Source: Monocercomonoides exilis PA203 (Eukaryota > Protista > Preaxostyla). From it: a DNA stretch of 64,000 bases. Of the stretch, positions 57,842 to 63,852 are shown piece by piece (the first letter of the stretch is position 1; each line of letters begins with the position of its first letter). A model generated the notes under the pieces. That model saw only the letters and a list, made by a program, of their open reading frames with translations. It did not search any database and was not told where the DNA came from. Location: NCBI GenBank assembly GCA_001643675.2, contig LSRY02000001.1, positions 1,550,001 through 1,614,000 of the forward strand. The letters are read 5' to 3'. Both the position numbers and the translations under genes were made by a program.

Positions 57842-58366
57842 TTCTGGTGAAACAAGAAAAAAAAAAGATATTTAACAAAAAAATTAGGGGTAAAGAAAAT
57901 TGAGTCAAAATGCGAAAAGGTTCAAAACATAAAAAACAAATAATGTGATTGATATTTTATTGAAAGTTTTTCATATTTCTTGTTTCGTTTCTGATATAAG
58001 AACATATTTCTTTCAGAATTAATTGACATAAAAATTATATACTCTTTTCACAGTCTCATGTCAACCAGTGAACCACTTAGGTTGAAATTTTATCAAATGG
58101 ATGACGAATACAATTTAATATCACAAAATCGGATATAAATAAATGAGATTTTATTCTTGTTGATTTTATAAGAACAAAGAAATTGTAAGTGTCTAATAAA
58201 CATTTCTTTTAGCACGCAACTGTTGCAGTATATAACAAAATTAGTAGATCAAATAGAGATATAGACAAAAATCACGCAAAAATAAATGAAATGCATTTAA
58301 TACACTTTAACTTTTTCTTTTCTTCATTTCTTTTTTATTCATTGCAATGGTTTTTTTTTTTTCCTC

Positions 58367-59779
58367 TTACAAATCGTTAAGATAAAATTCATCATCCTCA
58401 TCGCCTTGTGGCACTTCGACATCTTCTTCATCGTCATGCTTCAGATCAAAGCGCTTCTGCAGTTTCTCGTCTCTCTTCTTCTTGTCTCTCACTTTCCTAT
58501 CAGCCTGTCTTCTCAGTTCTTCTGCTTCCCATCCAGGCTCTTCTACTTCTCTCTGCTTCTTAAACGTTGCATTGAAAAAGGCATCAAACTCTGCTTCATC
58601 GTCTCCAATAAATATGTTATCGAAGATGGTTCCTGATTGAACTTGCCAGATATCAATAGCCACATATCTGAACCAAATGCTCTGCCTTCTTTCTTTTTCT
58701 TCAGTGAGTTGCATGTTTGGCACACGAGGCTTTTGCCAAGGACCCATCCACATCGGATTGGCAATTGTTTTCTGAATCCACTCACCTCTATATAGAGGAT
58801 TACGAATAATTGGACGATACCATTCTCCATCAACAGTATCATTCCAATCCTTCATCTTTGTGGCATTTGGATCTGGAATATACTTCGGCTGATCCCAATC
58901 AGCTGGTTTAATATCTTTTGGATCTGGTATTTCTTCTCGGTCATCCCATTCTTCTGGCTTCTCTGCATCAGGATCCTCAACCTAGAATGTTTATCATAAA
59001 TAATGGAATATTAATTTTTCTTTTTTAAAAAAATTGAACATACAAATCGAGGTGTGTACCAATTGCCCCACTGATCCTGAAATTCACCCCAATTCTCTTT
59101 TTTGATATCTGTTTGCAAAACATATGATCCGTTTGCGTACAATTTGATTGCATACAAATGGGTCTCTTTGTCATCCTTGGATCTGATACGTGCTCTTGAT
59201 TTCTGTTCTCTTCCTTCATGTCTGAAAATCGCATGAACTTGATCGTTGATTGATCCACATGTATCAGGCCCAAACATCAATTCAAATGGAGTATCACCGT
59301 TAAAGTTTTCTTGGTCAAATGGCTCATTGAAAAACTTCAGATATGATCCTGAACATTTAATATCTTGAGTTTGTGTCACTGTAAATCCAATGAAAAGATT
59401 CTTTCGAAAGTTTGTGACAGTTTCTCCAATGTCTGCGCTGATATGATAATATCTTTCATCTTGCGATGTCTTCAATCCTTTTGAAGCTTCGAGATGATAG
59501 TACTTTGGAGGTCTTTCCCATGTGAATTTACCAGCTTTGTTTTCCTCTTGATGTGCAGTACTATATTTCCATCTTTGTGGCCATGTGTCTATAAAATATC
59601 AAATTTAGAAATCCCGTTTTTGCATTAATATTGTTTTTAAAACAATTTTTAAAAATCATCAAATAGGAAGCAAATAAATATAATAAGCACTAAAATGAAA
59701 TAAACATACAATCAAATTGTTCAGCAAAATAAACTTTTGCTTCCACTGAAATGAGAAAACCCAAAAAAGCCAAAAACAT
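58367..59779 (-). CDS. CALR: Calreticulin, 3 exons
   Basis: Signal peptide then KVYFAEQF, GLKTSQDERYY, CSGSYLK, LMFGPDTCG, P-domain repeats (DPDAEKPEEWD, GEW..P.I.NP.Y), DIWQVQSGTIFDNI and an acidic tail. Confidence 0.93.
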
Positions 59780-60303
59780 GATCGAATATTGATCCGTTGC
59801 ATAAAATGATTATCAGCGAAACGAATTTTTCAAACTTTTTTTTGTCAATAAATCTGCAACAAGGAATGAAGAAGAACAATAATGTCTGTTATTTGTTATT
59901 TTTGTTTTTATGTTTTGAAAATTGATTTTCTCTCATTTAAGTTTTTTTTGAAATTTTTGTTTTCAATAATTAAATACTACTCATAAGCGCACAAATAATT
60001 GTTCAATCTCAGCAAGTGCATAATTTTTGTTCTGGTTTTGTTGGAAATCTCTGATATTCAATTAAAAGTTTATATCATTGTCCCCTCTTATTTTGGAGAA
60101 AAATGTTGAAAAAAATCTTATTTAGCTGCTTATTAAATTAGTAAATCTCAATAACTCTCGTTAAAAGCAGTAAAACAAAATAAAAGAAAGTTAAAAAAGA
60201 AAAAGAAAATACAACGAAAAAGTTACTAATGCTAACTAAACAATAACTCTGGTTAATCATCAAGGCGTTATGCCAATCTAAAAGTTATAATCTCAAAATT
60301 CAT

Positions 60304-61653
60304 TTACGCAACGACTGAATACTTTCCTGCATCTCTGGTGTCGCCTTTGCCAGTAAATTTCAGTGTGCTCTTTCTAACAGTTCCGGAAGTTGCCCATTGT
60401 TCAACAACAACCATGCCAGAGGACGTCATGCTGTGGAAGAAGCATCCGTGATTTCCGTGGTTCCAGTTAGGATATCTTCCATCGAAGAAAGTTGCAATGG
60501 CACAGCCCTTTTTCGGGTATTGGGTAGGTGTGATCTTTGGCCCTTCTCTCCATGTTTTTACCAGACCAATATCTTTGCAGAACCACTGAACAAGAACAAC
60601 ACATTGGCCATTGCCATATGTTTTGTGTCCAACGATTGAGTCAACATCCCCAGGGAAATAGTGCCCTCCTGTTACTGGTGCATCTGGTTCCGGTTGTGGC
60701 TTTGGAGGTTGAGGTTGTGGTGGTTGTGGTTTTGGTGGCTGCGGCTTGGGTGGCTGAGGTTTTGGTGGTTGAGGCTTTGGGCCATTTCCGGGAATCTTCA
60801 ATTTTTGTCCAACATATATTAAATTCGGATTAGAGATACCATTCAAATCAGCAATAGCTTTGACTGTTGTTCCATATTGTTTTGCAATTTTTGATAATGT
60901 ATCTCCCGCTTTCACAGTATATATAATATAATCATCACTTGGTGTTGGTTTTGGAGGCTGGGGCTTGGGAGGTTGTGGTTTTGGTGGTTGTGGTTTTGGT
61001 GGTTGAGGCTTTGGTTTTGGTGGTTGAGGCTTTGGTTTTGGTGGTTGAGGCTTTGGTTTCGGAGGTTGTGGCTTTGGTTTTGGTGGTTGTGGCTTTGGTT
61101 TCGGAGGTTGTGGCTTTGGTCTTGGTTTGGGGGTTGGTTTTGGAGATGGCTTTGGTTTCGGAGGTTGTGGCTGAGGCTTCGGTCTTGGTTTTGGAGATGG
61201 CTTTGGCTTGGGTGAAGGTTTAGGCTTTGGCTTTGGTGTGGGTTTTGGTTTTGGTTTTGGAGTTGGTTTTGGTTTAGGCTTTGGAGATGGTTTTGGTTTT
61301 GGCTTTGGCTTTGGTGATGGCTTTGGTTTAGGCTTTGGAGATGGCTTAGGCTTTGGCTTAGGCTTTGGGGATGGTTTGGGCCTCTTTGCTCCATCAATAT
61401 CTTCATCTTCTTCGAGATCAACTTCGTTATTCGCAAAAGAATCGCCTCCGTTTTCATCAAAATCATCCTCATCTATCATTTCATCTGCTTCTTCATCTAT
61501 GGTATCTTCGAATACAATGGAAGGCTCATCTTGAAAAGCAATCTGCTCCTGAACAAACTCAGTTCCATTTATTTTATAATCATCATTCTCTTGTTCAAAT
61601 TCGACGAATTCTTGGGCAAACGCCGAAATGAAAAATATGCTCCACAAAAGCAT
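60304..61653 (-). CDS. Secreted peptidoglycan amidase: signal peptide, acidic segment, Pro/Lys repeats, LysM, Tae3-like (NlpC/P60-fold) domain
   Basis: Lys[46 protein letters not shown]-terminal [10 protein letters not shown]...TWREG...[11 protein letters not shown]...GNHGCFF...VVEQW with Cys at 60601-60603 and His at 60448-60450. Confidence 0.85.
60940..61380 (-). repeat. Coding tandem repeats (PKPKPS / PKPKPQP units)
   Basis: Short tandem units encoding a Pro/Lys/Gln linker; a second block lies at about 60680-60785. Confidence 0.9.
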
Positions 61654-62054
61654 CTTTCAATTATATGATCAGAACAACCTTAGTTTATATGAAAACTGTT
61701 TCTATTCAAATTTGTTCATCTTATTAAACGAAATTGATAAACTAATTATTCAAAATTAATTAAATTGAATATTTTTTATTAAATAACATTTTGTGAAAAA
61801 TTTGTTTTTGGTTGAGTGCCAGAAAGTGATAAAAATATTATATTTTTACATTATTTGTACAAAAAATGAGAATTTGAATCCCGATTTTAATTGTTTTTCT
61901 ATAAATAGAAAATTTTCTGATTTTTTCAGAAAAAAATCATCATTATGGAAATAAGATAATTGACAAATTATTTCTCCTCACATTGAAAAATTATTAATTA
62001 CACAATCAAGAAACAATATTTATGAAAAATTGAATTTTGATAAACAATTTAATA

Positions 62055-62699: not shown

Positions 62700-63852
62700 G
62701 CGGTTTATTCCTTCTTGCGAAATCAACTCGAATGAAAATTACAAAAGCCAAAAAAATTTTGGAATAAAATCATCTTGAAGCATCTTGGCAGGACGTTTTG
62801 AAACATTGGGATGAAACGCTTGACAATCTGCATTCAAAACACAAATACCGAAGTGAGTTGATCTATGATGAAGATGAAACACCACTGAGATTATCTGATA
62901 ATTGCATAAAACCAGTTGCGATATCCTCGGAGTCTCCATCAGCCTATTGCCTTGATCCTTCTGGAGTGAGAAATGCGAAACTTGTGGCTGGTGTTGCCTC
63001 AGATGGGTTTTCTATGCCCACAATTGTTCTTTGGTCGAGTTCCAATATTCAGAAAGAGTTGACTCCTTTGCTATCTCCCTCGCTTTGTGTGTTGAGCAAT
63101 ACTAACTGTTTGATGAACTTTAATCTATTCAAACGATACTCTTTGCGTGATCTGCTTGAAATAATATTAGAAAGAAAGAAAAGAATAAAATTAACGAAAG
63201 AATGATGTTTGCTATTTGTTAATTCGCACAGTTCTCGCACAAACCCTGTTATTTGGGGAAAGTTTATCGAATCAAATGAAGACGTTATCACATTTGTTCC
63301 TCACATATCACATATTTCACAGCCTCTCGATAGAGGTGTTTTTGCTATTCTTAAATCAGTTTTAAATTCATCAATAGAAGTCCCTCAATCTTCAACTGCT
63401 TCTTTCAACAGAAAGGCTTTGTCAGACATCCTTCCTCAAGCTCTTCACTCTGCATTCGCTCCATCAGTTATAAAGAATGCCTTTGATGCAAGCGGAGTTT
63501 TTTTCAAATCATCAGGCCAGTTTTACGTAAAATGCCCAAGCACTTTTCATTTCCTTTGTCAACTTATTCAAATCATTTTGATTTTTACGGAAAACTGCTC
63601 ACAAACGAAGATTTCTGTGAAAAGTGGGGAGAAGATATTTTTATTCGAAAAAGAGCGAAATATTTTGATGCCGAAGAAGAAACAGATAACATTGAAGAAA
63701 CTCTTCCATTAAAATCAAAGAATAAAAGAGTTTATCGAAGAATTTTGCATGATGATTTGGAAAATATCGAAGAAGAAAATTTTGCAGATCAAAGTTCAGG
63801 AAAAAGAAAAATTCGAAGACTATTTGACCCAAGTTTTGTTTATTTTTGCTAA
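62700..63852 (+). pseudogene. pogo/Fot1-like (DDE_1) transposase pseudogene, copy C, 5'-truncated
   Basis: DETPL, ASDGFSMP, LFVNSH (catalytic Asp replaced by Asn) and SHISQPLDRGVF; stop at 63203-63205 and a frameshift; C-terminus homologous to copy A. Confidence 0.85.

What the first reader, a model, noticed from the sequence alone, without database searches (positions are those of the whole stretch)
60304..61653. Secreted LysM + Tae3-like amidase: probable domesticated bacterial T6SS toxin
Seen: an intronless gene with a signal peptide, LysM and a C-terminal domain with the Cys/His dyad. [21 protein letters not shown] closely resembles the type VI amidase effector Tae3 as I recall it (IATFVNGRYPN..GNHAAFF). 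Known: Tae genes have been horizontally transferred to eukaryotes as domesticated amidase effectors (Dae), and LysM binds peptidoglycan. Inference: a horizontally acquired antibacterial or digestive enzyme with an added cell-wall-targeting module, possibly an independent transfer into this lineage.
Basis: partly seen in the sequence, partly recalled or inferred. Interest (0 to 1): 0.8.

Follow-up and report, generated by a model that had tools for sequence, protein, structure and literature searches.

The report
Gut protist's captured bacterial wall-cutting toxin
A single-celled gut eukaryote (likely an oxymonad) transcribes a gene whose business end belongs to the Tae2 family of toxins that bacteria use to kill each other, joined to a bacterial cell-wall-binding LysM domain, and it likely uses the protein to cut open the walls of the bacteria it eats.

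Summary
The ORF is real (60304-61653, minus strand, 449 aa): a hydrophobic leader, an acidic stretch, a Pro/Lys linker, LysM and a C-terminal Cys/His hydrolase domain. RNA contigs show a polyadenylated, intron-free transcript beside a spliced calreticulin gene, so it is a eukaryotic gene. The domain is Tae2/BPSL0067 (6WIN: Z 18.9, rmsd 1.6 A; Cys351/His402 match Cys23/His73), not Tae3 (4HZ9: Z 4.3). Its nearest named relative is an uncharacterised Monocercomonoides exilis paralogue (93%). These two and three unnamed metagenome proteins form a 100/100 clade; genome-derived bacterial homologues are at most 46% identical to it. The LysM is about 70% identical to endolysin LysMs of Gram-positive phages, so the protein is likely a two-source chimera. 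It is most likely a horizontally acquired peptidoglycan endopeptidase for digesting prey. Activity, location, the donor and independence from tick Dae2 are untested. Verdict: a new variant of the known Dae phenomenon; my searches found no paper on it.

The parts
60116..61674 (-). Transcript: about 21 nt of 5' UTR, intron-free CDS, about 188 nt of 3' UTR, poly(A) at 60116
   Evidence: RNA contigs begin at 61674 and end at 60116 in X3, X4 and X5; 26-T loose end in X5 and X3; no joints inside the gene for contigs matching it exactly. Contigs cannot prove exact starts.
60304..61653 (-). CDS, 449 aa
61615..61653 (-). Probable signal peptide, aa 1-13
   Evidence: Hydrophobic core (max 8-residue Kyte-Doolittle mean 2.56) and A-F-A end; judged by eye
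61390..61614 (-). Acidic stretch, aa 14-88; starts with a short [ED]F-x2-[FL]E-x1-2-N motif shared with P0004 and P0005
   Evidence: 32 D/E of 75; motif in the first 40 aa of 3 of 197 stored proteins, all in the clade (motif derived from these three)
60931..61389 (-). Basic Pro/Lys then Pro/Gln repeat linker, aa 89-241
   Evidence: 79 P, 48 K/R of 153; not bridged end to end by one listed short-read contig
60790..60921 (-). LysM domain, aa 245-288, of Gram-positive endolysin type
   Evidence: Pfam E 2.7e-21; 67-73% identical to LysMs of Lactobacillus, Streptococcus, Bacillus and Microbacterium phage lysins
60676..60786 (-). Pro/Gln linker, aa 290-326
60307..60675 (-). Tae2/BPSL0067-family papain-like (CHAP/NlpC-P60 superfamily) peptidoglycan hydrolase domain, aa 327-449
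   Evidence: NF033857 E 1.2e-23; 6WIN E 2.8e-15; AlphaFold pLDDT 95.8; Foldseek E 1.9e-8, TM 0.85; Z 18.9
60601..60603 (-). Predicted catalytic Cys351
   Evidence: Aligns with Tae2 Cys23; Cys in 67 of 68 family rows
60448..60450 (-). Predicted catalytic His402
   Evidence: Aligns with Tae2 His73; His in 68 of 68 rows

Best explanation
This is an expressed eukaryotic gene encoding a Tae2-family Cys/His hydrolase domain fused behind a LysM, and it is likely a horizontally acquired peptidoglycan endopeptidase that the protist routes through its secretory pathway to digest the walls of engulfed bacteria. Shown: the gene, its transcript, the family and the intact dyad. Inferred steps: the leader sends it into the ER and on to the food vacuole. 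LysM holds it on the GlcNAc-MurNAc strands. Cys351/His402 cut the peptide cross-link, by analogy the mDAP-D-Ala bond modelled for Tae2 and Dae2. It would act with other acquired wall hydrolases (lysozymes, GH19) once outer membranes are breached. One tae2-family gene entered an oxymonad ancestor, left its partner gene behind, gained a leader, duplicated, and some copies picked up LysM (and in P0003 also SH3b) from a Gram-positive-type source.
For: Family and fold. Dyad conserved in 67 and 68 of 68 rows. Eukaryotic gene: poly(A), spliced calreticulin neighbour with GT-AG-type introns in the same RNA runs, TAPT1-like (DUF747) neighbour; the domain's GC3 of 0.43 is near the 0.32-0.39 of five neighbouring ORFs. 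Bacterial origin: 69 of 69 genome loci found are bacterial, 57 of them Pseudomonadota. 50 of 65 loci with room downstream have an STY0301-like partner gene (36 of 51 outside the seed set); the window has none. Two loci sit inside T6SS clusters (TssC-Hcp-tae2-STY0301-TssE; TagH/TssK-tae2-STY0301-TssL). Clade of window, MONOS_7044, P0003, P0005 and P0020 at 100/100. Paralogues MONOS_7044 and MONOS_9726. A published orthogroup pairs MONOS_7044 with Blattamonas BLNAU_6536 (PMC10703272 supplement). M. exilis is a bacterivore with wall-digesting enzymes (PMC12308965). Tae2 and Dae2 hydrolyse peptidoglycan (bioRxiv 2020.04.10.036376).
Against: There are no activity or localisation data. The signal peptide was not run through a predictor. 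The vacuole-versus-surface choice rests only on lifestyle. The sister group of the clade is unresolved (74/71). P0020 has no leader, is of unknown origin and is 56% identical to an Asaia homologue over 109 aa; its place in the clade had only 61% support in the 218-row tree. Only 7 of 69 bacterial loci showed Hcp, TssC or TssK within about 5 kb (three single-sequence queries). BLNAU_6536 did not turn up by name in my protein searches, so I could not check that it holds the hydrolase domain. Dae2 cannot cross an outer membrane alone, so killing of intact Gram-negatives would need help.
Confidence: 0.72

Rival explanations
1. The same enzyme is released or held on the cell surface as an antibacterial weapon that thins or shapes the surrounding gut bacteria, as tick Dae2 and Trichomonas NlpC_A1 do. 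The long basic linker would act as a stalk or bind anionic bacterial surfaces.
For: Tick Dae2 is in saliva and kills Gram-positives. T. vaginalis NlpC_A1 is on the surface (bioRxiv 320382). LysM and SH3b suit exposed Gram-positive walls.
Against: There is no transmembrane or anchor segment at the C-terminus. The likely host feeds by phagocytosis.
Confidence: 0.17
2. The domain is a bacterial wall hydrolase but did not come from a stand-alone T6SS effector. It came from another carrier of the same domain (phage baseplate, Rhs, T4SS or eCIS fusion), or reached oxymonads from another eukaryote that shares an origin with arthropod Dae2. This rival concerns origin and is compatible with the enzyme function.
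For: The domain is fused to Rhs, VgrG, WXG100, eCIS-core and T4SS proteins and to large phage baseplate proteins (L081-L093). The sister group is unresolved.
Against: The phage baseplate forms fall far from the clade. Most named bacterial relatives are short stand-alone genes with a partner gene. The loop before the catalytic His has the commonest bacterial length (12 residues, 48 of 68 rows), whereas tick and mite Dae2 are reported to differ from Tae2 in the loops around the active site.
Confidence: 0.2
3. The protein binds peptidoglycan or chitin as a receptor or adhesin and the hydrolase domain is inactive or repurposed.
For: More than half of the protein is low-complexity linker. One paralogue model, MONOS_9726, lacks a recognisable catalytic Cys region.
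Against: Cys, His, Trp and Gln family positions are all kept, and the model overlays Tae2 at 1.6 A.
Confidence: 0.06
4. The gene is bacterial contamination or an assembly chimera.
For: It has no introns. No single listed contig spans the repeat between the N-terminal part and LysM, and paralogues with similar N-termini and repeats exist.
Against: Poly(A) tail; RNA ends fit the gene while a DNA contig runs on into the AT-rich flank (61360-61935); LysM and hydrolase lie on one RNA contig and one DNA contig; annotated M. exilis paralogues sit on Mb-sized contigs; best genome-derived bacterial match 46%.
Confidence: 0.02

Closest known systems
Tae2 T6SS amidase effector (PDB 6WIN; NCBIfam NF033857 BPSL0067)
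   Same: Fold (Z 18.9, rmsd 1.6 A over 119 residues), Cys/His dyad, loop length before His, HMM score far above the cut-off.
   Different: Here it is eukaryotic, has a leader, an acidic stretch, a Pro/Lys linker and LysM, and has no downstream STY0301-type partner gene.
Dae2 of ticks and mites (domesticated amidase effector 2)
   Same: Same enzyme family, eukaryotic host, N-terminal signal sequence, same catalytic residues.
   Different: Host is a unicellular gut protist. Dae2 is reported to broaden its range through active-site loops and is single-domain as I recall; this one adds wall-binding modules. Shared or separate origin was not tested.
   Same: Distant papain-like superfamily fold with a Cys/His dyad.
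   Different: Z 4.3, rmsd 4.0 A, 10% identity; absent from PDB sequence searches down to E 10.
Laterally acquired wall hydrolases of metamonads (Trichomonas NlpC/P60, GH19, GH25)
   Same: Bacterial wall enzymes in a gut or mucosal metamonad; GH19 homologues, including in M. exilis, carry SH3b or LysM modules (bioRxiv 2025.04.21.649813).
   Different: Different catalytic family: NlpC1 of T. vaginalis aligns at only Z 6.4, 11% identity.

Membership tests
Tae2/BPSL0067 family | Scores above the NF033857 cut-off | tested here: met
   79.4-83.6 bits against 27
Tae2/BPSL0067 family | Tae2 fold with Cys23/His73 dyad | tested here: met
Tae2/BPSL0067 family | Cleaves peptidoglycan cross-links | not testable with these tools
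   Needs sacculus digestion
Working T6SS effector Tae2 | Adjacent immunity-type (STY0301-like) gene | tested here: not met
   A profile of the partner genes finds nothing in the window's six frames at E up to 1; the immunity role of STY0301 is recalled
Tae3 family | Closest sequence and structure match is Tae3 | tested here: not met
   4HZ9 is listed at Z 4.3, rmsd 4.0 A, 10% identity, rank 50, against Z 18.9 for Tae2
Dae (domesticated amidase effector) | tae-family gene resident and expressed in a eukaryote | tested here: met
   Poly(A) transcript, spliced eukaryotic neighbour, annotated paralogues
Dae (domesticated amidase effector) | Eukaryotic secretion signal gained | tested here: inconclusive
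   Hydrophobic leader with an A-x-A end by eye; no predictor available
Dae (domesticated amidase effector) | Nested among bacterial T6SS tae genes in a tree | tested here: inconclusive
   Clade 100/100, surrounded by bacterial or unnamed rows, but the sister is unresolved and the trees are unrooted
Dae (domesticated amidase effector) | Retained antibacterial or wall-cutting activity | not testable with these tools
   Bench assay needed
Arthropod Dae2 clade | Groups with tick and mite dae2 | not tested
   No arthropod Dae2 was identified among the stored proteins; most of the top 150 of 409 hits are unnamed
Trichomonas-type or eukaryotic NlpC/P60 | Pfam NLPC_P60 match and close structure | tested here: not met
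   No NLPC_P60 hit at E up to 1; 6BIM Z 6.4, 11% identity

The most novel reading that the evidence does not exclude
Oxymonads captured a T6SS Tae2 toxin independently of ticks and re-engineered it by domain addition. A Gram-negative-directed toxin domain was fused to Gram-positive endolysin-type LysM (and SH3b) modules and a cationic stalk, reaching the widened, Gram-positive-inclusive range of tick Dae2 by a different route. The gene family (bare, LysM, LysM+SH3b forms) would be a natural series for testing how an interbacterial weapon becomes a digestive enzyme.
Probability: 0.35. Interest if true: 0.7.

Novelty: new variant of a known kind. Interest (0 to 1): 0.52.

Why it matters
Capture of T6SS amidase effectors by eukaryotes is known, and so are laterally acquired wall hydrolases in metamonads. 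The papers I could read describe Dae2 only in ticks and mites. This would extend the Tae2 family to a gut flagellate and add a modular form that joins parts from likely two bacterial sources. It names a testable prey-digestion enzyme in an organism whose paralogues are annotated only as uncharacterised, and it offers a clean comparison of two routes to domestication: active-site remodelling in ticks and domain addition here.

Tried and rejected
Tae3 assignment: rejected. No whole genome is held, so copy number in the host genome was not counted. Metagenome scan with the 5-sequence alignment: 242 pattern matches, 0 relatives. The scan with P0020 gave 22 loci, none in the clade, so the contigs of P0003, P0005 and P0020 stay unseen. 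Viral scans with P0002 and P0078 found 0 relatives; GenBank phages gave no match for the hydrolase domain; plasmids gave 7 weak ones. The 'longer' protein search covered only 435-2000 aa, scored a capped 7992 candidates and gave 3 hits; lengths 217-245 were not covered by the word-based searches. The single-sequence fold of LysM plus hydrolase failed (pLDDT 41) and was not used. My notebook entry on a '255-nt insertion' in a second copy is withdrawn: 255 recurs as the length of unrelated loose ends and looks like a ceiling; the data show only that paralogues with related N-termini exist. The LysM identity printed (3 of 46) was a register slip; one search gives 34 of 46. Run X11 has only partial matches, and run X9 only two 151-nt pieces at depth 2; neither is used. 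Contig depth was not used to rank expression. The careful 100-row tree did not finish (quick tree shown); the 60-row tree left out 40 of those 100 rows, including the long branches P0129, P0059 and P0078. The 218-row tree dropped 22 of 241 hits for low coverage and one duplicate. Earlier-findings look-ups returned nothing. No complex prediction was run.

Full report
Observation. The ORF at 60304-61653 (-) encodes 449 aa. In order it has a 13-residue hydrophobic leader, an acidic stretch (32 D/E in aa 14-88), a Pro/Lys-Pro/Gln linker (aa 89-241), LysM (aa 245-288, Pfam E 2.7e-21), a short Pro/Gln linker and a 123-aa C-terminal domain. The leader looks like a signal peptide by eye and hydropathy; no predictor was available.

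It is a real eukaryotic gene. The neighbours are calreticulin and a DUF747 (TAPT1-like, name recalled) gene. RNA contigs from three runs of one study cover 60116-61674 with no splice joint in this gene, and two carry a 26-T loose end at 60116 that the genome does not template. In the same runs the calreticulin transcript skips introns of 62 and 121 nt. One RNA contig joins the poly(A) end, the hydrolase domain and LysM. No single listed contig bridges the whole repeat, so its length and the pairing with this N-terminus rest on the assembly. A second study (X10) holds near-identical pieces, including LysM with 2 differences in 158 nt.

Family. The domain scores 83.6 bits on BPSL0067_fam (cut-off 27). 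Its only significant PDB sequence match is Tae2 6WIN (E 2.8e-15 alone, 7.7e-42 with a 68-row profile). The AlphaFold model (pLDDT 95.8) matches 6WIN by Foldseek (E 1.9e-8, TM 0.85) and VIA-align (Z 18.9, rmsd 1.6 A). Next come phage endolysin CHAP domains at Z about 8, Trichomonas NlpC1 at 6.4, Tse1/Tae1 at 4.9 and Tae3 at 4.3. Cys351 and His402 correspond to Cys23 and His73, the catalytic residues named in bioRxiv 2020.04.10.036376.

Relatives. Among 1.84 billion cluster representatives, 409 hit at E up to 0.001; I saw the top 150. The closest are M. exilis MONOS_7044 (93%; LysM truncated in the gene model), P0003 (78%; LysM, SH3_3 and hydrolase; partial, unnamed), P0005 (68%; leader and hydrolase only) and P0020 (50%; no leader). 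MONOS_9726 is a divergent further M. exilis copy. An X3 contig with 47 differences over the domain runs on into sequence matching MONOS_7044. So the window is likely M. exilis or a close oxymonad, though its exact protein is not in the collection. A published orthogroup table pairs MONOS_7044 with Blattamonas BLNAU_6536, and MONOS_9726 with MONOS_2870 (PMC10703272 supplement rows); I could not see those two sequences.

Trees. In a 60-row tree the window, MONOS_7044, P0003, P0005 and P0020 form one group at 100/100, and its sister is unresolved at 74/71 (40 of 100 rows left out). In the 218-row quick tree the first four held at 97, and adding P0020 gave only 61. Genome-derived bacterial homologues reach at most 46% identity to the window's domain. 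P0020 reaches 56% to an Asaia homologue and may be bacterial.

Bacterial context. All 69 genome loci are bacterial, 57 of them Pseudomonadota. 50 of 65 with room downstream carry an STY0301-like gene directly behind (36 of 51 outside the seed set); the window has none. Two loci checked by HMM lie within T6SS clusters, but only 7 of 69 showed Hcp, TssC or TssK nearby with three single queries. The domain also occurs in Rhs, VgrG, WXG100, eCIS-core and T4SS fusions and in phage baseplate proteins. 'T6SS-effector family' is therefore shown, while 'taken from a T6SS effector' is only likely.

The LysM. It is 67-73% identical to LysMs of lysins from Gram-positive phages (12 of 344 records listed) and 74% identical to the LysM of P0003. 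Among 182 stored proteins and the ORFs of 115 loci, only P0001, P0003 and P0004 matched it. The fusion is thus confined to this clade in what I sampled, and likely joins parts from two bacterial sources. Short LysMs are poor markers of origin, so this is an inference.

Mechanism. Shown: gene, transcript, family, dyad. Inferred: entry to the secretory pathway, LysM binding to glycan strands (established LysM property), and cleavage of the cross-link, modelled for Tae2 and Dae2 at the mDAP-D-Ala bond. Tae2 was restricted to Gram-negative walls, while tick Dae2 also cut Gram-positive ones and could not pass outer membranes. M. exilis eats bacteria and has lysozymes, so a food-vacuole role is my best reading (0.72). 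A surface or secreted weapon is the main rival. Whether the acidic stretch masks the basic linker until processing is speculation.

What is known. Repeated eukaryotic capture of tae genes is established (PMC8713801), and metamonads hold other acquired wall hydrolases, some with LysM or SH3b. I found no paper on a Tae2-family gene in oxymonads; several listed only the top 10-20 of many hits (20 of 141).

Papers and what I saw. bioRxiv 2020.04.10.036376: passages and main text parts 1-2 of 3. PMC12308965: passages, plus a search of 2 supplements with no hit. bioRxiv 2025.04.21.649813: abstract and passages. bioRxiv 320382, PMC9779611, PMC8713801: passages. PMC10703272: term search and supplement rows. 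PMC6759080: passages; its supplement with the LGT table S9 could not be read and may list these genes. PMC13342648: search listing only. Chou 2015, Russell 2012 and the Cell version of Hayes 2020 were not held; anything on them is recalled.

Verdict. Real, and a new variant of a known kind: a Dae2-like gene family in an oxymonad with added wall-binding modules. Interest 0.52; 0.7 if independent origin and LysM-dependent Gram-positive activity are shown.

Noticed in passing
L081, L082, L084-L093 (viral contigs), e.g. L081:1532-5224: Large (1200-1300 aa where complete) phage baseplate proteins, one with a weak Phage_base_V OB match, carry an internal Tae2-family domain. It may stand in for the tail lysozyme, a virion-associated use of this family.
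   Followed up: partly
P0059 (unnamed JGI protein, 317 aa): Hydrophobic leader, Tae2-family domain and phage-tail-lysozyme domain; it falls away from the oxymonad clade and may be a separate eukaryotic capture. Origin unknown.
   Followed up: partly
window 61349-61674 and the repeat 61000-61390: RNA and DNA contigs show other genes with related leader, acidic and Pro/Lys regions, suggesting a wider family of secreted proteins with the same N-terminal scaffold.
   Followed up: no
P0004 (MONOS_7044), aa 24-46: The annotated LysM lacks about 26 residues. An X3 contig has 301 nt upstream of the domain, enough for a full LysM, so the gene model may contain a false intron; not verified.
   Followed up: no
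window 58215-59710 (-): Intron-containing calreticulin gene; RNA and DNA contigs also show a second diverged copy or allele.
   Followed up: no
window 62798-63852: Broken DDE_1-like transposase remnant (weak Pfam hit, E 0.012), with very high DNA depth starting near 62050, suggesting a repeated element upstream of the gene.
   Followed up: no
P0171, P0173, P0110, P0039, P0136: The Tae2-family domain is fused to Rhs, VgrG, WXG100, eCIS-core and T4SS (VirB5/TrbJ-like, name recalled) proteins, so it is used by several delivery systems.
   Followed up: partly
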